In this document: piece by piece, positions 939-8,206 of the stretch
How positions within the stretch are numbered: position 1 is the first letter of the stretch
How the letters are laid out: each line of letters begins with the position of its first letter
Virus record (IMG/VR): IMGVR_UViG_3300014523_000046
Origin: a virus
Taxonomy: Duplodnaviria > Heunggongvirae > Uroviricota > Caudoviricetes
Strand: one strand, 5' to 3'
Length of the DNA: 8,274 nt
Program-made: the position numbers and the translations under genes
Notes under the pieces: model-generated
Databases searched by the model: none
Told to the model about the DNA's origin: nothing
The model's input: the letters and a program-made list of their open reading frames with translations, nothing else

Positions 939-1193
939 TCACTTTCTTAAATCTAACGATAGACGGCTAACATTTAAGTATTGTGAAATATTATCAAATG
1001 TAATCATCATTGATTTACAAAAGATACATTTTGCCCCGAAAGGATTCCTGTCAGAAACATCAAAAGATGATGTTCTATACTGAGAACCATGGCAACACGG
1101 GCATCTAAAGTGAATATGGTTTGTAATATTATCTACCTCAAAGTGCCACAACATGAACAGCCGCGGGGCCTTTAGGTCCGTTCTCAATACCAA
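939..1193 (-). CDS. Candidate small Cys-rich (zinc-ribbon-like) protein, start uncertain
   Basis: ORF contains C-P-C-C ... 21 aa ... C-I-F-C (CxCC...CxxC), a pattern unusual for a random ORF, and ends 8 nt before a terminator hairpin. The codon at 1193 is TTG with AGGAAG 7 nt upstream; the first ATG is at 1154. Either start overlaps the 3' end of the cspI-like gene (stop 1138) in another frame, which lowers confidence. Confidence 0.3.
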
Positions 1194-1350
1194 ATTCGAC
1201 TTCCTGATTCTCAGTTAACGTTTTGAAATCGTTGCTCTGAATAGCTGAGAAATGGACAAACACATCTTTGCTACCATCTTTCGGCGTGATGAAACCAAAA
1301 CCTTTTTCAGGGTTAAACCATTTCACTAAACCAGTCATTTTGTTAGACAT
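1138..1350 (-). CDS. cspI: Cold-shock protein, CspA family (CspI-like, 70 aa)
   Basis: Translation [70 protein letters not shown] carries the RNP1/RNP2 cold-shock-domain motifs (KGFGFI, VFVHF). Two tandem ATGs at 1353 and 1350; the second gives the canonical MSNKMTGL N-terminus. AAAGGTAATA SD-like sequence upstream, typical of csp genes. Stop TGA 1138-1140. Confidence 0.9.
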
Positions 1351-1353
1351 CAT

Positions 1354-1713
1354 TATTACCTTTTGAAGAAGTTAGCCCTTGGGCAGAATGGTCCGAAAAA
1401 AAATATCAGAGAGAAAAACCAACAAGGAAATCTCAAGAGGTACAAATAATAAAATTATAACAATGACTGCTTCAGATAATTTTGTAACAAACCAGAACAC
1501 CATTAACGCATGATTAACCAACCATAGCAAGGATTACTTTTGTAAAGAAAAACACACGAATGAAACAATAGCTTTATTTATTAATAAAACGTGTCATTCT
1601 GTCTAATGACCTTTTATCTTACCCTTAAGATTTCAAGGATTTTGACTCATGGAAGAGTCCTTTTTATTTAAATTTCACATTCAGCGCTAAAAATAATCCG
1701 ATTTAATATTAAT
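1354..1713 (-). promoter_or_regulatory. AT-rich upstream region of the cspI-like gene (promoter plus probable long 5' UTR)
   Basis: A 360-bp non-coding AT-rich gap between the Rz stop (1714) and the csp start. CspA-family genes characteristically have long structured 5' UTRs. I did not locate an exact cold-box match by eye. Confidence 0.4.
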
Positions 1714-2741
<1,028 letters not shown>

Positions 2742-2854
2742 GGATATTTATCAGGATTTATCGGCTTCAAATCCCCGGATATGTTAAATCTTACCTCACC
2801 AGTGATGGGCACTGGCGGGAGGAGGATGTCAATCTGATAAACACAGAGGCGACT

Positions 2855-3115
2855 ATGGATTACACAAATCTACCTAAACAAACTTTTGCTGATTTAATCG
2901 CACTCAGGCAAGCAGTCGTAGCTCTAATCAACTTGTTGCCGGAGAAGGAAAAGGAATTAGTTAAAGCGCTTCTTAACAGAACTGCCGCCGATTTTTCATC
3001 ATATCCACTGACAGATGACCTTGCGGACCTTCCTGAATTAATTGCAGCGTCCGCCAATAAGCTTACTGAAGAGATTTACCCTCCTCAAAAATCTTCACAA
3101 AATTCCTGCGAGTAA
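2855..3115 (+). CDS. Candidate small acidic protein (86 aa), convergent with and overlapping the 3' end of the DUF1327-like gene
   Basis: ATG at 2855 preceded by AGAGG at about 6 nt spacing. Lies in the 320-bp gap between the endolysin start and the upstream gene. Its 3' end overlaps the minus-strand gene by about 53 nt. No recognisable family. Confidence 0.25.
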   Translation: MDYTNLPKQTFADLIALRQAVVALINLLPEKEKELVKALLNRTAADFSSYPLTDDLADLPELIAASANKLTEEIYPPQKSSQNSCE

Positions 3116-3614
3116 CTTCAATGCAATAATCGTAAAACGCCGCAAACTGCTCATCGCGGCGTTTTTTTTCATCTTCAGAAGGAATCAGCACCGACAATTT
3201 TTTATTCAGATCAGCGACGCTGCCCTCCAGTTTTTCAATGGGCGATTCAATATCATCTTTTTCTGACCGCAATGCCGTCGGTGGCGTCTTCAGAGAACCA
3301 GTAATTCTTCCCGGTAGCTTTCCTTTGTAGGTTATCCACACATTCTGCGCCTCTAAAATTATGGGGCGCTTTTCCGGCGACTGCTCATCCCCTTCACATA
3401 ACCCGGCAGCAACATCCAGGAAGACCTGTCTGATGCTCCTTCTGGCTGCTGCCTCATAAAACTCCAGCGCGGCACCTTCAACACGGTCCAGCGAGATGTC
3501 CAGGTCAAAAATTTCACCGTCAAAGTGTTTTTTGTCCCGTAAGGCTACAGTTACCGCCACTTTATTCTCAAAATTGCGAACTCCTTTCACAACCAGTTCA
3601 TAGTCTTGAGTCAT
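3063..3614 (-). CDS. DUF1327 (YdfR-like) prophage protein with about 100-aa C-terminal extension (183 aa)
   Basis: N-terminal about 80 aa (MTQDYELVVKGVRNFENKV...DGEIFDLDISLDRVEGAALEFYEAAARRS) match my recollection of the YdfR/DUF1327 family that sits between holin and endolysin in Qin-like prophages. The track ORF begins at a TTG (3635); the first ATG is at 3614, just after the holin stop. Stop TAA 3063-3065. Confidence 0.65.
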   Translation of the reverse strand: MTQDYELVVKGVRNFENKVAVTVALRDKKHFDGEIFDLDISLDRVEGAALEFYEAAARRSIRQVFLDVAAGLCEGDEQSPEKRPIILEAQNVWITYKGKLPGRITGSLKTPPTALRSEKDDIESPIEKLEGSVADLNKKLSVLIPSEDEKKRRDEQFAAFYDYCIEVTRRNFVKIFEEGKSLQ

Positions 3615-3618
3615 TGGA

Positions 3619-3834
3619 TTACTCTCTTCTCGCAACCTTACGCCTGTCTTCTTTAATCTTGAAATAAAGGTTTGTCAGATACGTCAGCATGCCAAATACC
3701 AGACTACCCAATACACCTATTGCCGCCCACTGTGAGGGCGTGACTTTATCGAGCAACTGTAAAAACCAGTAGCCAGCACTGCCTGCAGAGGTGCTGTAGG
3801 CGATGCCCGTTGTTAACTTATCCATGGATTTCAT
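3619..3834 (-). CDS. Class II holin, phage-21 S-like pinholin (71 aa) with dual-start motif
   Basis: Within track ORF 3619-3918, ATG at 3834 with strong SD (GGAGGTGAGGCT-ATG) gives [71 protein letters not shown]: two TM segments, a charged C-terminus, and the MKSM dual start (Met1/Met4) typical of S21. Confidence 0.9.
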
Positions 3835-4024: not shown

Positions 4025-4738
4025 CTAAGAAAATCTTGATAAATATTGGTGCGGAGGCACACCAAAATATCCTCTAAAAACACTTACAAAATATGATGCA
4101 TTGTCATACCCGCATATTCCCGCCACCTTGCCGACAGTATGGTTACTGTAGATCAATAATCTTTGCGCCATCATCATTCGTTCTTCAAGAATTAATTTAC
4201 TAAACGATAATCCTTCGTTTTTTAATTTTCTTTTTAACAAACTCTCGCTCATATATAATCTTGAAGATATATCACAAAGTCTCCATGACGCTGAGATATC
4301 CGAGTGAATAATAGCCTTAACTTTACAACCTAAGCTATTAAGACTTCCGAACAAAAAACTTTGCACTATTTTCTCTGAAGATAAGACAGCAAGACATGCA
4401 AGTGATATTTGATTTCTAACTACATCCACGGTTTTGCTATCACAATTCAAGCATGCAACCAAGTTCCTTAACAATGAAAAATCTTCACATTCTACTATCA
4501 AGTATGACGGATAAAACCTTCTTACAGAAAAAGGTGAGAGTGTGTAGTTTTTAAAGAAATCATTAACTGTTTTCTCCTCAACATCTACGATCATTAGATG
4601 ATCTGTATTTGACGAAAAAAGATCTTTTAAATTGTATTCAATGAGGACAGCATTTCCTTTTTTAAACAAAATATCTTCTTTACCAATTCGGACAACAAAC
4701 GAGTTCAACACCAAAATGATAGAACATATGTATGGCAT
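4025..4738 (-). CDS. AraC/XylS-family transcriptional regulator (237 aa), AT-rich horizontally acquired type
   Basis: C-terminal about 100 aa carry the double helix-turn-helix of AraC/XylS proteins (...SESLLKRKLKNEGLSFSKLILEERMMMAQRLL...VGKVAGICGYDNASYFVSVFRGYFGVPPHQY). The N-terminal domain is not recognisable. The codon at 4747 is GTG and lies inside the SD; ATG at 4738 with AGGTGG 5 nt upstream is the likely start. Very low GC compared with the lysis genes. Confidence 0.85.
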   Translation of the reverse strand: MPYICSIILVLNSFVVRIGKEDILFKKGNAVLIEYNLKDLFSSNTDHLMIVDVEEKTVNDFFKNYTLSPFSVRRFYPSYLIVECEDFSLLRNLVACLNCDSKTVDVVRNQISLACLAVLSSEKIVQSFLFGSLNSLGCKVKAIIHSDISASWRLCDISSRLYMSESLLKRKLKNEGLSFSKLILEERMMMAQRLLIYSNHTVGKVAGICGYDNASYFVSVFRGYFGVPPHQYLSRFS

Positions 4739-5144
4739 ATTATCCACCTGATATCATTGGGGTTACACCAGGTAAGTATAGGTGGAAAATCAATATTCGC
4801 CAGTTCAACAATAAGGAAAATCTCATTGCATCACAACTATAAAACCATGTGTTTAACTCACAAAAAACAAATCATTAAACTAATCTGTTATATTATAATA
4901 GCTGCGTGCAATAATAATATTATATGCTCTTAATATTCACTTGAAATATCTTCATATAAAAACAGATTGAATAAAATCTTTTGGGGCTGGTATGTTTACC
5001 AACATTAAATTGCATCTCAATGTTTTCTTTAGCGTGAACAGGATTTTTATACAAACTGACACTATGGGCATCATAGCGTAGTTTTTACGATTGTAAATAT
5101 CCTGCATACAGGAACTCATCACTTTCAGATGATATCGCATACAG
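4739..5144 (-). promoter_or_regulatory. AT-rich intergenic region upstream of the AraC-like gene (probable promoter and silencing region)
   Basis: About 400 bp of strongly AT-rich non-coding sequence with many A/T tracts, between the DUF523/DUF1722 stop and the AraC start. The only ORF here (4952-5140) looks spurious. Typical of xenogeneic promoter regions; no specific hexamers assigned. Confidence 0.35.
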
Positions 5145-6104
5145 TTAATTCACCATCAGTCTTAGAGCCAGTTCTTCCGGATAGGGATCGAAGTAATTCT
5201 GTGTAAGCAAGTAATCATTAGGATACTCACCCAGATAATGCTTCAGCAGAGTCAACGGCGCAAGAAGAGGCAATGTGCCAAAGCGATAGTTAAGTATAAC
5301 CTCGCTCAACTCTTTACGCTGGCGTGTACTTAAGTAATTACTAAAATACCCCTGTATATGCATCAGCACATTCGTGTGATTTTTACGTGATGCTGGTTTT
5401 CTGAGAATCGCCATCAGATTATCACGATACACCTCAAAGTATGATTCAAGGTCCGCCCACTCGTGTATTGCAGCCACAAATGGTCCCATATCTTTATAGC
5501 CTGCCTGGCTATGCGCCAACAACTGAAGCTTATAACGACTATGAAAAGCTAATAACTCTCTTCTTGATAATTTCTCCTTGTAAAGATGATTGAGCTCATG
5601 CAAAGCAAAAACTCTTTCAATAAAATTCTCACGAAGCACTGGATCATGTAATCGCCCATCCTCTTCAACCGGTAGCCAGGAAAACTTTTCCATCAAAGTG
5701 CTCGTAAATAGTCCCACTCCATCTTTACGACCTCGATTACCATTTTCATCATAGACACGCACGCGCTCCATGCCACAGCTGGGAGATTTAGCACAAACCA
5801 CAAACCCCGATACATCCTTTAATTTGTCCATATAAGAACGACTAAACTCTGTCATTCTCTCTGTCACATCCTCATTCTGGTCGTGGCTGAAACACATCCG
5901 TATATTTCCTTGCTTCGAGCGCACAAGTCGTAGAGCAGGACGCGGAACTGGCAGCCCTATAGCCATTTCCGGACATACTGGTCTGAATGTTACCCATTCC
6001 ACTAATTTGTCCATTAAAAAGTCATCTCTTTTGTGACCACCATCAAAACGAACAGCAGAACCGCCCAAACAACCGCTGATCCCAATCACAGGTTTTTTTA
6101 TCAT
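5145..6104 (-). CDS. DUF523 (TudS-like Fe-S) + DUF1722 (YbgA-like) fusion protein (319 aa)
   Basis: N-terminus MIKKPVIGISGCLGGSAVRFDGGH with Cys at about 12, 44 and 104 (SPSCG) matches the three-Cys [4Fe-4S] ligand pattern of DUF523/TudS-type proteins. The C-terminal half is helical and YbgA/DUF1722-like. ATG at 6104 preceded by AAGGGGGAGGAA. Stop TAA 5145-5147. Confidence 0.8.
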   Translation of the reverse strand: MIKKPVIGISGCLGGSAVRFDGGHKRDDFLMDKLVEWVTFRPVCPEMAIGLPVPRPALRLVRSKQGNIRMCFSHDQNEDVTERMTEFSRSYMDKLKDVSGFVVCAKSPSCGMERVRVYDENGNRGRKDGVGLFTSTLMEKFSWLPVEEDGRLHDPVLRENFIERVFALHELNHLYKEKLSRRELLAFHSRYKLQLLAHSQAGYKDMGPFVAAIHEWADLESYFEVYRDNLMAILRKPASRKNHTNVLMHIQGYFSNYLSTRQRKELSEVILNYRFGTLPLLAPLTLLKHYLGEYPNDYLLTQNYFDPYPEELALRLMVN

Positions 6105-6296
6105 TTCCTCCCCCTTGACTAATTCATTAACACATAAACTTTGTAGTGCACGGACTAAATTGCCTTTCTGGCTTCATCACTGACAATTTTTCTGTTATTG
6201 ACTATTCCTAATATAGTAGGAAAGTTCTTTAAGTGATCGGTCGTACTCATCTATCTTTCATACTTACTCTCAACTATCAAAAGTACAGGATTTATT

Positions 6297-6821
6297 ATGA
6301 AGTTATGGCCTGTGTTGACTGGCATTGCACTCTCTTTCACTCTTATAGCATGTAAGGCCCCGACACCACCTAAAGGTGTGCAGCCGATTACAAATTTTGA
6401 CGCCAACCGCTACCTCGGAAAATGGTATGAAATAGCTCGCCTCGAGAACTGGTTCGAACGTGGTCTGGAACAGGTCAGCGCTACTTATGAAAAACGGAAC
6501 GACGGAGGGATTCGCGTACTTAACCGTGGATACGATCCAACGAAAAACAAATGGAGCGAGAGCGAAGGTAAAGCATACTTTACTGGAGATACTAAAACTG
6601 CAGCGTTGAAAGTTTCGTTTTTTGGCCCCTTCTATGGTGGCTATAATGTAATCAAGCTGGATGATGAGTATAAGTATGCTCTTGTCAGTGGTCCGAACAG
6701 AGAATACCTATGGATTCTGGCAAGGACCCAAACTATTCCAGATAATGTAAAAGCAGACTATGTGCGTACCGCTCAAAAGTTGGGATTCAATGTCAATGAA
6801 CTATTATGGGTTAAACAATAA
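6297..6821 (+). CDS. Bacterial lipocalin Blc-like outer-membrane lipoprotein (174 aa)
   Basis: Signal peptide with lipobox L-I-A-C (MKLWPVLTGIALSFTLIACKAPTPPKG) and lipocalin core motifs shared with Blc (NFDANRYLGKWYEIAR, KVSFFGPFYGGYNVI, YLWILAR). SD AGGA 6 nt before the ATG. Plus strand, opposite to the surrounding phage genes. Confidence 0.9.
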   Translation: MKLWPVLTGIALSFTLIACKAPTPPKGVQPITNFDANRYLGKWYEIARLENWFERGLEQVSATYEKRNDGGIRVLNRGYDPTKNKWSESEGKAYFTGDTKTAALKVSFFGPFYGGYNVIKLDDEYKYALVSGPNREYLWILARTQTIPDNVKADYVRTAQKLGFNVNELLWVKQ

Positions 6822-6977: not shown

Positions 6978-7355
6978 TTATTTCGAACAATCAGCATCCA
7001 TCTCCAATCGGAGATCCAACACCATCAGCATGCCCTCCACTACGCCCTCAGCTTTCTGGAGCATCCTGCCAACCCAACAATCAGATCGCCCATGCTTACG
7101 TGCAAGCGCCATAAAAGTCATGCCGCCGACATAATAGTCCACCAATAAATCATGTAAATCGCTGTTGTTTTTTTTCAGGCGAGCCATACATTCACAAATG
7201 ATCATCGCGTCATCGTCACAGCATTGCGGACGAGATCTTACTTTTGAAGGAATTAATCCCTTAAAACCGGCGGCAATGGACGACCAGGTCACATCTTCAT
7301 GATTATTAGCCGCCCATGCCCCCCAACGCTCAAGAACCATCTGAATATCACGCAT
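6978..7355 (-). CDS. Phage antitermination protein Q, short QuuD-like type (125 aa)
   Basis: Translation from ATG 7355 ([26 protein letters not shown]...[32 protein letters not shown]) matches my recollection of the approximately 127-aa Q-like antiterminators of DLP12-type prophages (Phage_antitermQ family). The track start at 7370 is a TTG; ATG 7355 has GGAG 8 nt upstream. Followed by a terminator, as expected for Q. Confidence 0.8.
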
Positions 7356-7372
7356 CAACTTACTCCACAAAA

Positions 7373-8206
7373 TTAGGCCAGCACACCAATTGCCAGCGCG
7401 CGATCGATAAATCGAAAAATCAGCTCCAGTTGGGAGCCATACTTCTCTTCAAATGCCACGGTATCCGTATGCAACTCGTCGTGATGCTTTCTGCACAAAG
7501 GCAACACAAAGAGATCATGTGCTTTGGTTCCCATTCCGCCCTGCCCGTGACCAATCAGATGATGCGGATCGTCGGCTGGCATACCGCAGCAAGCACACGG
7601 CTGTGTCTTAACCCAGCGTGTGTATTTCTCCTTAACCCAACGGTGACGTTTAGGCAGCTTCATGAAAGATTCCGGAGACTCTGGATCAACGGTGATGCTT
7701 ACCACCGTCTTTTCCTGTGATGGGTTTTGTTGCTGGTGGGCGTGAGGCAACGGTGCAAGATTTTTTGTGCGCTGTTTCAATATGCTGGTGGCGGTCTGCT
7801 CTCCCGGTACGATGTCGCTTTCGCGGTACACCGAGCAGTTTTTTTCCGCTGGTAATCCCAGCGAGCGACGTAATACCGCTTCCGGTAGCGCGTCCGCCAC
7901 CTGATTGCGGACCGCCCACCAGGATAATTCAGCCAGAGATAATTCACGCTCCTGCGTACCGCTTATTGTGTGACCGATGACGTCAATCATCCATGCTGAC
8001 AGGTTTTGATGAGCAAGTTGCTCGAGTGATTCGGATGTCTGGTCACGCAGCTGGTTGTCGCAGTGCCAGCACAACACCATTGCGCCGGTACCATAACGGT
8101 GAATAACGGTTTCGCTGTGATGATAATCGCCGAGTGGCCACTGGCAGGATTTAATATGGCGCAACAGCCAGTCAGACAATGCACCAGCACTGATCTTACC
8201 CAGCAA
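7373..8206 (-). CDS. Lambdoid nin-region protein with C-terminal Cys/His-rich DUF1364/DUF968-like (HNH-like) motif; start uncertain
   Basis: C-terminal segment ...[45 protein letters not shown] has the CxxC...HH...GTK...C..HH pattern I associate with YbcO/YdfU-type prophage proteins found upstream of Q. The track start codon (8206) is TTG with no SD; the first in-frame ATG is at 8080. Stop TAA 7373-7375, 17 nt before the Q start. Confidence 0.55.

What the first reader, a model, noticed from the sequence alone, without database searches (positions are those of the whole stretch)
2742..3614. Extra gene content between holin and endolysin, including a convergent overlapping small ORF
Holin and endolysin are usually adjacent; here they are separated by a 183-aa DUF1327-like protein with an extended acidic C-terminus and a 320-bp gap that holds a plus-strand 86-aa ORF with a good SD, overlapping the 3' end of the DUF1327 gene by about 53 nt. 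A convergent overlapping pair inside a lysis cassette could be an antisense-regulated module (lysis timing control or a small toxin/immunity pair), but the 86-aa ORF may also be non-coding.
Basis: inference. Interest (0 to 1): 0.45.

Follow-up and report, generated by a model that had tools for sequence, protein, structure and literature searches.

The report
Mobile tail-to-tail gene pair in lysis cassette
Between the holin and endolysin genes of this E. coli prophage sits a small conserved cassette: a helical add-on fused to the YdfR protein, and an 86-residue gene on the opposite strand overlapping its end. Both appear to be real genes of unknown function rather than decayed DNA.

Summary
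On the minus strand, 3063-3614 encodes a 183-aa protein. Residues 1-112 are a DUF1327/YdfR domain and residues 113-183 are a charged helical extension. A plus-strand 86-aa ORF (2855-3115) has a Shine-Dalgarno site and overlaps that gene's 3' end by 53 nt.

Both reading frames look real. The extension occurs in many homologues, with in-frame indels only. The 86-aa ORF has full-length homologues at 41-55% identity in Salmonella and other E. coli prophages. In all five divergent lineages examined, that ORF converges on a gene ending in the same extension module, overlapping it by 53 or 59 nt. A conserved hairpin follows the plus-strand stop.

Compared with H-19B-type phages, the window carries a 486-nt insert (2793-3278) placed at the stop codon of a short YdfR gene. 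PGAP's "pseudogene" label for this gene is an annotation artefact.

Most likely the 86-aa gene is a separately transcribed accessory gene ("moron") docked tail-to-tail on a late gene, whose coding hairpin serves as its terminator. An antisense or antidote relationship is possible but untested. No toxin-antitoxin, defence or RNA family matches. Both proteins are already catalogued as PHROG families of unknown function. Interest is moderate.

The parts
3619..3834 (-). Class II (phage 21 S-type) holin, essQ. Context gene; first gene of the lysis cassette.
   Evidence: Pfam PF04971, E 3.3e-34. RefSeq annotates it as essQ.
3063..3614 (-). 183-aa fusion gene: DUF1327/YdfR domain plus a C-terminal extension module (stop codon at 3063-3065).
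   Evidence: Full-length match to phrog_2091, E 8e-112. Homologues of 183, 176, 211, 171 and 180 aa differ only by in-frame indels. PGAP annotates only 3279-3614, as a pseudogene.
3279..3614 (-). DUF1327 domain portion (residues 1-112). It corresponds to a complete short YdfR gene as found in H-19B-type phages.
   Evidence: Pfam PF07041, 143 bits, profile positions 1-92 of 93. Aligns with L010 1560-1977. AF2 predicts three strands plus a helix.
3063..3278 (-). Extension module (residues 113-183): a charged helical region, SEKDDIESPIEKLE..LNKKLS..KKRRDEQFAAFYDYCIEVTRRNFVKIFEEGKSLQ.
   Evidence: The same module is a stand-alone 73-aa gene in Salmonella prophages, the C-terminus of 116-, 144- and 243-aa proteins elsewhere, and the N-terminus of the O157 185-aa protein. 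AF2 predicts helices 125-143 and 147-182 at low confidence.
2855..3115 (+). 86-aa ORF: a small acidic (pI 4.6) protein predicted to form three helices. Member of phrog_2572.
   Evidence: phrog_2572, E 4e-53, full length. Homologues of 89-93 aa at 41-55% identity. Across lineages, substitutions fall p3>p1>p2 (73/55/39), with the best BLOSUM score and no stops in this frame. AF2 pLDDT 72.6, helices 8-27, 30-48, 56-74.
2845..2849 (+). Shine-Dalgarno sequence AGAGG, 5 nt upstream of the ATG of the 86-aa ORF.
   Evidence: Read directly from the sequence. The equivalent TAAGGA, 6 nt before ATG/GTG, is conserved in the distant lineages.
3063..3115 (.). 53-nt tail-to-tail overlap of the two coding regions.
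   Evidence: The overlap is 53 nt in the E. coli ORF86 lineage and 59 nt in all four distant lineages.
3134..3169 (+). Hairpin (arms 3134-3143 and 3156-3165, 12-nt loop) running into a T8 tract (3162-3169). Probable intrinsic terminator of the plus-strand gene, embedded in the KKRRDEQFAAF codons of the minus-strand gene.
   Evidence: Free energy -14.6 kcal/mol, z -3.4 to -3.8. Conserved in all lineages, with a compensatory G:C to A:T change that costs R>H and A>V in the minus-strand protein. Mutated or deleted where no plus-strand gene converges.
2757..2785 (+). Candidate sigma-70 promoter of the 86-aa gene: TTTATC, 17-nt spacer, TATGTT. The start site would lie near 2792.
   Evidence: It is the best-scoring site at the same alignment position in every lineage, and T-A-T-x-x-T is invariant. 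It is weak (7 of 12 consensus positions) and was not listed by the consensus scan. Inference only.
2744..2764 (.). Invariant block ATATTTATCAGGATTTATCGG. It accompanies the cassette even at Salmonella post-Rz sites that have no adjacent endolysin.
   Evidence: Alignment A4; blastn.
2793..3278 (.). 486-nt insert relative to the H-19B-type 'empty' arrangement, in which a short YdfR gene lies 50 nt from the endolysin. GC is 43.8%, against 49-52% in the flanks.
   Evidence: blastn of the window against L010; GC content.
2208..2741 (-). Endolysin rrrQ, a phage lysozyme whose N-terminal stretch [24 protein letters not shown] looks by eye like a SAR signal-anchor (not tested). Context gene.
   Evidence: Pfam PF00959, E 2.6e-24; RefSeq annotation.

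Best explanation
The interval holds a mobile accessory cassette of about 490 bp, inserted at the stop codon of a short YdfR (DUF1327) gene in a phage-21-type lysis cassette.

The cassette has four elements:
(a) A charged helical 'extension module', read on the late (minus) strand. Here it is fused in frame to YdfR, giving a translated 183-aa protein.
(b) A plus-strand 86-aa gene for a small acidic three-helix cytoplasmic protein.
(c) A hairpin with a T-tract, lying inside the module's codons 18 nt after the plus-strand stop.
(d) A short conserved upstream block carrying a weak promoter-like site.

Shown:
- Both frames are conserved coding sequence.
- The tail-to-tail geometry and the hairpin are conserved in five lineages and at two genome positions.
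- The PGAP pseudogene call is an artefact.

Inferred:
- The 86-aa gene is a moron-type cargo gene transcribed on its own, against the direction of Q-dependent late transcription, so mainly in the lysogen or before late transcription. It would start from the candidate promoter at 2757-2785 and end at the hairpin.
- The overlap reflects docking onto a module whose 3' hairpin serves as a terminator or landing pad, rather than a dedicated antisense switch.
- The extension partner is made late, together with holin and endolysin.

The biochemical roles of both proteins are unknown. K-12 YdfR is reported to bind the catalytic half of RNase E and to pull down RNA (PMC13232886).
For: Insert boundaries and composition
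- The insert boundaries come from comparison with the H-19B-type site. GC is 5-8 points lower than in the flanks.

The extension is translated
- Full-length match to phrog_2091.
- More than 100 homologues in length classes of 171, 176, 180, 183, 211 and 296 aa differ by in-frame indels only and keep the same C-terminus.
- A stand-alone 73-aa version has its start overlapping the Rz stop in Salmonella. Its N-terminal half, outside the ORF86 footprint, shows dN/dS of 0.39-0.58 in two of three pairs and 1.0 in the third.

The 86-aa ORF is translated
- Of the 86 loci compared, 77 keep an intact ORF.
- Homologues of 89-93 aa at 41-55% identity have a conserved SD and start.
- Substitutions fall p3>p1>p2. 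This frame has the highest BLOSUM score and no stop in any lineage.
- PGAP and phage annotators call it a gene.

The hairpin
- It is conserved with compensatory changes.
- It is intact with a T8 tract where a plus-strand gene converges, including a different 233-aa ORF in Stx phages.
- It is mutated or deleted where no plus-strand gene converges.

Presence in phage genome records
- The same arrangement occurs in deposited complete phage genomes: PhiR63_1, 2H10 and the PhiR12 series.
Against: - There is no expression data of any kind.
- The promoter candidate is weak, was missed by the consensus scan, and is also present at 'empty' sites.
- Codon usage of the 86-aa ORF is no better than in other frames.
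- The antisense frame that shares wobble positions is also largely open and nearly as conserved. The strand assignment therefore rests on moderate statistics (p1 against p2: 55 against 39) plus the start, SD and stop architecture.
- One lineage lost the ATG (seven loci, all with the 176-aa partner) and one locus has Q19*.
- T-tracts after the hairpin are poor in the Salmonella and L095 lineages.
- The 86-aa gene is never found without the extension module, which a pure cargo model explains only through the overlap and terminator footprint.
- The coiled-coil part of the extension evolves almost neutrally among E. coli variants (dN/dS 0.4-1.0).
Confidence: 0.5

Rival explanations
1. Functional pair. 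The 86-aa gene and the extension module work together. The plus-strand transcript would act as a cis-antisense RNA against the late mRNA, pairing over about 380 nt between YdfR-ext and the endolysin. Alternatively, or in addition, the acidic ORF86 protein would bind and neutralise the helical module. Either way the pair would serve as a safety catch on lysis-gene expression in the lysogen, or as an antidote-like pair.
For: - In all five divergent lineages the 86-aa homologue is convergent with, and overlaps by 53 or 59 nt, a gene ending in the same module, whatever that gene's N-terminus and whether the pair sits between S and R or after Rz.
- The two genes have diverged together.
- The stand-alone partner is basic (pI 8.9) and ORF86 is acidic (pI 4.6).
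- The geometry resembles lambda OOP/cII and the 3'-overlapping type I systems of Bacillus prophages (established knowledge).
Against: - The extension module is common without ORF86 (phrog_1085 and the O157 185-aa proteins), so ORF86 is not an obligatory antidote.
- A different plus-strand ORF occupies the same slot in some Stx phages.
- Because the genes overlap physically and the terminator lies in the partner's codons, much of the linkage is unavoidable.
- Neither protein has a membrane segment, and there is no PADLOC, NCBIfam or Rfam match.
- No experiment bears on the question.
Confidence: 0.27
2. The 86-aa ORF is not translated. It would be a shadow of constraint acting on the other strand, or on an RNA or DNA element. 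The conserved feature would then be a minus-strand ORF (2860-3057, 65 aa, whose TTG start is ATG in most haplotypes) or a non-coding spacer of the late transcript.
For: - The minus-strand frame that shares wobble positions is open over the non-overlapping part in all lineages. It shows equal or lower dN/dS among close alleles.
- The ORF's codon-usage score is near zero.
- ORF length is not beyond chance.
- Start-codon loss and a nonsense allele exist.
Against: - Across distant lineages the plus frame has more identity, a higher BLOSUM score and zero stops, against 3-6 stop columns in the shadow frame.
- The second codon position of the plus frame is the most conserved (39 changes, against 55 at position 1), which is the wrong way round for the shadow frame.
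- A conserved SD with ATG/GTG and a conserved stop position exist only for the plus frame.
- The shadow frame is expected to stay open because the ORF has few Tyr, His or Gln codons.
- The 65-aa product has no family match.
Confidence: 0.1
3. Decaying prophage junk. On this reading YdfR is a truncated pseudogene, as PGAP annotates it, and the region down to the endolysin is a meaningless remnant.
For: - PGAP flags 3279-3614 as 'incomplete; missing C-terminus' in HS and other genomes.
- The window lies in a Qin-like prophage that is defective in E. coli HS. The RefSeq record shows truncated tail-tip and terminase genes nearby.
Against: - The frame stays open for 183 codons and matches phrog_2091 end to end.
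- The same protein is annotated as intact in other NCBI records (P0030, P0036 with 463 contigs).
- The arrangement is present at 99.5-99.8% identity in deposited complete phage genomes.
- All length variants differ by in-frame indels.
Confidence: 0.04

Closest known systems
YdfR / DUF1327 family (PF07041; E. coli K-12 Qin prophage YdfR, 103 aa)
   Same: The N-terminal 112 residues are a full DUF1327 domain. The position is the same, between a class II holin and the endolysin. K-12 YdfR binds the RNase E catalytic half through residues 1-72 and co-purifies with RNA (PMC13232886).
   Different: This protein carries a 71-aa helical extension that K-12 YdfR and the common 114-116-aa forms lack. 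RNase E binding has not been tested for this variant.
PHROG families phrog_2091 (183 aa) and phrog_2572 (86 aa)
   Same: Both window proteins match these profiles end to end (E 8e-112 and 4e-53).
   Different: Both families are listed as 'unknown function'. Their consistent tail-to-tail pairing, the shared hairpin and the mobility of the pair are not part of the catalogue entries.
Morons of lambdoid phages (for example lambda bor, downstream of Rz on the strand opposite to late transcription)
   Same: An extra gene inserted between genes that are adjacent in relatives, with lower GC, its own terminator-like hairpin, an orientation against late transcription, and a location in the lysis region (after Rz in the Salmonella versions).
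   Different: There is no sequence similarity to Bor and no lipobox or signal peptide. The promoter is only a weak candidate. The gene overlaps the 3' end of a late gene and always travels with that gene's last 45 or so codons.
Convergent 3'-overlapping antisense pairs in prophages (lambda OOP RNA/cII; Bacillus type I toxin-antitoxin pairs txpA/RatA and bsrG/SR4)
   Same: Convergent transcription units overlapping at their 3' ends by some tens of nucleotides, carried on a prophage.
   Different: In those systems one partner is a non-coding RNA, and in type I systems the other is a small hydrophobic toxin. Here both strands encode conserved soluble proteins, and no RNA-level regulation has been shown.
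phrog_1085 (296 aa) and the O157:H7 185-aa protein WP_001015158
   Same: They share the extension module (coiled coil plus KKRRDEQFAAF.DYC) in the same holin-endolysin slot.
   Different: In those proteins the module continues into a C-terminal domain of about 130 aa. No plus-strand gene converges on it, and the hairpin is mutated or deleted.

Membership tests
DUF1327 / YdfR family (PF07041) | Pfam profile match above the gathering score | tested here: met
   143.4 bits against a cutoff of 25, residues 1-112, profile positions 1-92 of 93.
DUF1327 / YdfR family (PF07041) | Binding to the N-terminal catalytic half of RNase E and association with RNA, as reported for K-12 YdfR | not testable with these tools
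   Known only from bacterial two-hybrid and pull-down assays on the K-12 protein (PMC13232886).
phrog_2091 | End-to-end profile match | tested here: met
   E 8.1e-112, residues 1-183 on profile 1-183 of 183.
phrog_2572 | End-to-end profile match of the 86-aa ORF | tested here: met
   E 4.4e-53, residues 1-86 of 86. The distant homologues P0020, P0024 and P0026 also match.
Moron (accessory transcription unit in a lambdoid phage) | Present as an insertion between genes that are adjacent in related phages | tested here: met
   2793-3278 is absent from the H-19B-type arrangement (L010), where YdfR lies 50 nt from the endolysin.
Moron (accessory transcription unit in a lambdoid phage) | Own terminator downstream | tested here: met
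   Hairpin of -14.6 kcal/mol plus a T8 tract 18 nt after the stop, z -3.4 to -3.8, conserved with a compensatory change. This is a prediction; termination was not measured.
Moron (accessory transcription unit in a lambdoid phage) | Own promoter upstream | tested here: inconclusive
   Only a weak site, TTTATC-17-TATGTT at 2757-2785. It is positionally conserved in all lineages but was not listed by the consensus scan.
Moron (accessory transcription unit in a lambdoid phage) | Nucleotide composition different from the neighbours | tested here: met
   Insert GC is 43.8%, against 51.9% for the endolysin and 49.1% for the DUF1327 part.
Type I toxin-antitoxin (3'-overlapping convergent type) | Small hydrophobic membrane toxin | tested here: not met
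   GRAVY is -0.20 for ORF86, -0.75 for the extension and -0.37 for the 73-aa partner. There is no hydrophobic segment.
Type I toxin-antitoxin (3'-overlapping convergent type) | Non-coding antisense RNA as the antitoxin | tested here: not met
   The convergent strand carries a protein-coding frame conserved at 41-55% identity. There is no Rfam match.
Type I toxin-antitoxin (3'-overlapping convergent type) | Convergent transcription units overlapping at their 3' ends | tested here: met
   A 53-nt or 59-nt coding overlap in every lineage. The transcripts themselves were not observed.
Known anti-phage defence or toxin systems (PADLOC) | Match to any PADLOC model | tested here: not met
   No hit for ORF86, the 183-aa protein, the distant homologues or the partners.
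Anti-CRISPR AcrIIC4 | Significant sequence or fold similarity | tested here: not met
   hmmsearch E 0.12, Foldseek E 7 with TM 0.33, hhalign probability 9.5% over 25 residues.
DUF1823 (label given to the ORF in the PhiR12 and PhiR5 records) | Pfam match | tested here: not met
   No DUF1823 hit at E up to 0.1 (window ORF86) or 0.5 (distant homologues P0020, P0024, P0026).

The most novel reading that the evidence does not exclude
The 86-aa protein and the helical extension module form a previously undescribed two-gene regulatory unit of lambdoid lysis regions. The plus-strand gene would be expressed from the prophage and hold the late-expressed module in check. It would do so through RNA pairing across the holin-to-endolysin segment of the late transcript, through direct protein binding, or both. 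That would set lysis timing or prevent accidental lysis. The unit would move between phages as a cassette and could be fused to RNase-E-binding YdfR domains.
Probability: 0.2. Interest if true: 0.65.

Novelty: new variant of a known kind. Interest (0 to 1): 0.4.

Why it matters
Lysis cassettes of lambdoid and Shiga-toxin phages are among the best-studied gene sets in biology, yet the genes between S and R remain uncharacterised.

This work shows that a YdfR gene routinely labelled a pseudogene is an intact fusion protein. It also shows that a 'hypothetical' antisense ORF belongs to a conserved family whose members, in every lineage examined, lie tail-to-tail with the same module. Together these give two concrete, cheap-to-test candidates for accessory functions in lysis or lysogeny, and they correct an annotation error that recurs across the RefSeq E. 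coli genomes examined here.

If the pair proved to be regulatory, it would be a compact protein-coding analogue of antisense control inside a late operon. That would bear on toxin release by Stx phages, which carry variants of the same slot.

Tried and rejected
- **Codon-usage log-odds**. ORF86 scores 0.05 bits per codon, against 0.14-0.45 for neighbouring genes, and is not separable from other frames. The test cannot assign the strand.
- **dN/dS among close alleles**. The ratio is 0.3-0.5 but identical for the antisense wobble-sharing frame, so it does not discriminate. Distant homologues and the p1-against-p2 asymmetry were needed.
- **Minus-strand 65-aa ORF (2860-3057).** Considered as the real gene and rejected. 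It has lower cross-lineage BLOSUM scores, contains stop columns, shows the wrong p1/p2 asymmetry, and has no SD or family match.
- **AcrIIC4 lead.** It was the top hit in two searches but is not significant.
- **Family libraries.** Pfam, NCBIfam and PADLOC gave nothing for ORF86, its homologues or the partners. The 'DUF1823' label in some phage records was not reproduced.
- **Rfam.** No family matches in 2600-3700.
- **Species-representative genomes.** Only E. coli was found. Wider relatives came only from the exhaustive HMMER search.
- **Literature searches.** Nothing was found on DUF1327 in lysis, or on antisense genes or morons in lysis cassettes, that describes this pair.
- **AF2 of the 183-aa protein.** Mean pLDDT was 53, too low for a fold search.
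Full report
**Where the window comes from**

The window matches E. coli chromosomes at 100% identity over 2600-3750, for example strain HS. It lies in a Qin-like lambdoid prophage.

The late operon runs on the minus strand in this order:
- Q antiterminator, 6978-7370
- a block of cargo genes
- class II holin essQ, 3619-3834
- the 183-aa ORF, 3063-3614
- endolysin rrrQ, 2208-2741
- Rz, 1714-2211, with Rz1 embedded

**Checking the observation**

- The gap 2742-3062 is 321 nt.
- The plus-strand ORF is 2855-3115, 86 aa.
- AGAGG lies 5 nt upstream of its ATG.
- The overlap with the minus-strand gene is exactly 53 nt.
- Pfam finds DUF1327 only in residues 1-112 of the 183-aa protein.

Three qualifications apply.
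- The remaining 71 residues are highly charged but only mildly acidic, with net charge -3.
- ORF length is not significant on its own. 14% of shuffles contain an open stretch of 86 codons or more.
- Codon usage gives no signal.

The question therefore had to be settled by comparison with related sequences.

**The extension is coding, not a pseudogene remnant**

RefSeq/PGAP annotates only 3279-3614, as an 'incomplete YdfR family protein, missing C-terminus', and calls the plus-strand ORF a hypothetical protein. Several results contradict the pseudogene label.
- The 183-aa protein matches phrog_2091 from end to end.
- The protein database holds 356 relatives at E of 0.001 or better. Their length classes are 114-116, 171, 176, 180, 183, 211, 268 and 296 aa.
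- In the alignment, the extended forms differ by in-frame insertions and deletions only (minus 7, minus 12 and plus 28 residues). They keep the same C-terminus...FAAFYDYCIEVTRRNFVK.FEE.KSLQ.
- Other NCBI records annotate the 183-aa and 176-aa proteins as intact.
- The same arrangement occurs at 99.5-99.8% identity in the deposited complete phage genomes PhiR63_1 and 2H10. A 91.5% allele occurs in the PhiR12 and PhiR5 phages.

**The locus is a mosaic**

Several arrangements occupy the holin-endolysin slot.

| Phage or strain type | Locus | Arrangement |
|---|---|---|
| H-19B type | L010 | 114-aa YdfR ending ...KTPPLA, 50 nt from the endolysin |
| This window | window | 486 extra nt (2793-3278) in place of 8 nt; the insert starts at the stop codon of the short gene |
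| AR_0067 | L008 | 297-aa protein: DUF1327 + extension + a domain of about 130 aa |
| O157:H7 | L009 | 185-aa protein: extension + that domain, with no DUF1327 |
| Some Stx1a/Stx2a phages | L004 | the extension followed by a different, unannotated 233-aa plus-strand ORF |

The extension is therefore a separately mobile module.

**The 86-aa ORF among close relatives**

I compared 86 related loci (phage records, other E. coli genomes and IMG/VR viral contigs). They give 15 haplotypes. The ORF is intact in 77 of them and none carries a frameshift.

The exceptions are few.
- Seven loci share an ATG>ACG start loss. All seven carry the 176-aa partner, so this is probably one lineage.
- One locus has Q19*.
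- One locus carries a stop-codon change.
- In strain GF66.2 (locus L007) the ORF is interrupted by an IS3 element.

dN/dS between the three main alleles is 0.3-0.5. However, the antisense frame that shares wobble positions (2860-3057) gives equally low values. This test therefore cannot assign the strand.

**Distant homologues settle the strand and reveal a cassette**

An exhaustive HMMER search found full-length relatives of 89-93 aa at 41-55% identity. A profile search added Salmonella members.

Their contexts are as follows.
- In Salmonella prophages with a DUF2514 Rz, GH19-type endolysin and DUF1441/GpA terminase (L092, L096-L099) and a related contig (L104), the gene lies after Rz and before the terminase genes. 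It converges on a 73-aa minus-strand gene.
- In E. coli-like contigs (L095, L100-L103) it lies between a DUF1327 protein (243 aa) or another protein (144 aa) and the endolysin.

In every case four features recur.
- The plus-strand gene overlaps the 3' end of the minus-strand gene by 59 nt (53 nt in this window).
- The last 45 or so residues of the minus-strand protein are homologous to the window's extension. The shared motif is KRRDE/RHHEN ... A.(F/L) ... (R/M)(N/K)F ... Q.
- The SD (TAAGGA or GAGG) and an ATG or GTG start are conserved.
- A hairpin follows the plus-strand stop by about 18-25 nt.

Across these lineages the plus frame has the highest identity and BLOSUM score, with no stop columns. 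The shadow frame has 3-6 stop columns. Substitutions fall in the order expected for a real gene: 73 at position 3, 55 at position 1 and 39 at position 2. Over the best-aligned 53 codons the counts are 45, 34 and 20. For the shadow frame this asymmetry would be reversed.

I conclude, at about 85-90% confidence, that the plus frame is translated. The support is statistical rather than experimental.

**The hairpin**

In the window the hairpin is AAAACGCCGC-N12-GCGGCGTTTT followed by TTTT (3134-3169). Its free energy is -14.6 kcal/mol, with z of -3.4 to -3.8. It lies in the KKRRDEQFAAF codons of the minus-strand gene.

Conservation across lineages:
- The Salmonella lineage keeps AACGCCGC/GCGGCGTT.
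- The L095 lineage has AACGCCACC/GGTGGCGTT. This is a compensatory G:C to A:T change plus an added pair, paid for by R>H and A>V in the protein.
- On a seven-sequence alignment, 87% of cells pair, against 29-60% for slid controls. Two pairs change on both sides, and 28 of 500 shuffles score as high.

Relation to a converging gene:
- The hairpin is intact with a T8 tract where a plus-strand gene converges, including the alternative 233-aa ORF.
- It carries a mismatch in O157 (L009) and is deleted in L008, where nothing converges.
- This fits a plus-strand terminator. The sample is small, however, and the T-tracts are poor in two lineages.

**Upstream region**

A 21-nt block at 2744-2764 is essentially invariant in all lineages. 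That includes the Salmonella post-Rz sites, which have no adjacent endolysin.

The best sigma-70-like site in every lineage falls at the same alignment position: TTTATC-17-TAT(G/T)(T/G)T, at 2757-2785 in the window. It is weak and was not picked by the consensus scan. It is also present at 'empty' sites. I treat it as a candidate only.

**Protein properties**

- ORF86 is acidic (pI 4.6) with no hydrophobic segment. AF2 predicts three helices (8-27, 30-48, 56-74) at pLDDT 72.6.
- Fold and sequence searches give nothing significant. A recurring weak AcrIIC4 hit fails profile-profile comparison.
- For the 183-aa protein, AF2 predicts a DUF1327 domain of three strands plus a helix, a disordered linker and two C-terminal helices, all at low confidence.
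- There are no PADLOC, NCBIfam or Rfam matches.
- The only functional literature found concerns K-12 YdfR. It binds the catalytic half of RNase E through residues 1-72 and pulls down RNA, with little effect on the transcriptome (PMC13232886).

**How it most likely works**

Shown:
- a mobile cassette with two conserved coding frames placed tail-to-tail
- a conserved hairpin
- in-frame fusion of one partner to YdfR in this window

Inferred:
- The minus-strand partner is made from the Q-dependent late transcript, together with holin and endolysin.
- The plus-strand gene faces that transcription and must have its own promoter, so it is probably expressed in the lysogen or early.
- It terminates at the hairpin.

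I favour the reading of a moron docked on a module that provides the terminator. The reasons:
- The extension module functions without ORF86 in many phages.
- A different plus-strand ORF uses the same slot and hairpin.
- The insert has a lower GC content.

The rival, a functional pair acting through antisense RNA or protein antagonism, stays alive. ORF86 was never found without the module, and the whole pair, including the module's N-terminal half, moved together to a second genome position. That N-terminal half shows dN/dS of 0.39-0.58 in two of three Salmonella pairs and 1.0 in the third.

**Comparison with known systems, and novelty**

The cassette works like a moron and has the geometry of OOP/cII or of 3'-overlapping type I toxin-antitoxin pairs. 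It fails the defining tests for type I systems, because it has no hydrophobic toxin and no non-coding antitoxin.

Both proteins are already catalogued as phrog_2091 and phrog_2572, with unknown function. The sequences themselves are therefore not new.

What I did not find in the PHROG entries, the GenBank/RefSeq annotations or the three literature searches I ran is:
- the conserved pairing of the two genes
- the hairpin they share
- the mobility of the cassette
- the systematic mis-annotation of the fused gene as a pseudogene

Interest is moderate.

Noticed in passing
window 1092-1508 (-): An Rfam cspA thermoregulator (RF01766, 112.8 bits) covers the leader and start of the cspI-like cold-shock gene at 1138-1353, downstream of Rz.
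   Followed up: no
window 4025-6821: A cargo block lies between the Q antiterminator and the holin, the position where stx sits in Stx phages. It holds a lipocalin (6297-6821, +), a YbgA-family protein (5145-6104, -) and an AraC-type regulator (4025-4747, -, GC 33%). A terminator-like hairpin with a T-run at 3956-3935 (-) lies just upstream of the holin.
   Followed up: partly
L004 2562-3263 (+) (Stx1a-converting phage Stx1_14040, LC567819): An unannotated 233-aa plus-strand ORF fills the slot that the 86-aa gene occupies here. It converges on the same extension module, whose hairpin and T8 tract are intact, and it overlaps the annotated 263-aa minus-strand ORF by about 250 nt. It has no Pfam, PHROG, PADLOC or NCBIfam match and occurs in only 8 Stx phage records.
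   Followed up: partly
L009 1086-1643 (-) (E. coli O157:H7 TX 265-1) and L008 1086-1976 (-): O157-type prophages have a 185-aa protein made of the extension module plus a C-terminal domain of about 130 aa, without DUF1327. Strain AR_0067 has all three parts in a 297-aa ORF (phrog_1085), which PGAP again labels a YdfR pseudogene.
   Followed up: partly
L007 1236-2449 (E. coli GF66.2): An IS3-family element is inserted inside the 86-aa ORF. The two halves of the ORF lie on either side of the element.
   Followed up: no
L074-L080 (IMG/VR contigs): Seven loci share an ATG>ACG change at the start of the 86-aa ORF. All seven carry the 176-aa partner variant (7-residue deletion). This is a natural start-codon knockout that could be used for phenotype comparison.
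   Followed up: partly
window 2860-3057 (-): A 65-aa antisense ORF shares wobble positions with the 86-aa gene. Its start is TTG in this window but ATG in 12 of 15 haplotypes, and it begins 5 nt after the stop of the 183-aa gene. I judge it a shadow frame, but it is open in all lineages.
   Followed up: yes
window 2855-3112 (+), compared with PDB AcrIIC4 (7f7p, 8hns): AcrIIC4, a helical prophage protein of similar size, was the only Foldseek PDB hit and also appeared among the weak sequence-profile hits against PDB, below two engineered repeat proteins. All scores are non-significant (E 7; E 0.12; hhalign probability 9.5%).
   Followed up: yes
window 7373-8206 (-): A 277-aa ORF lies upstream of Q. 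It differs from the E. coli HS arrangement at this position, which has DUF1391, ydfB and IS1. The window therefore comes from a related but different prophage variant. The ORF was not analysed.
   Followed up: no
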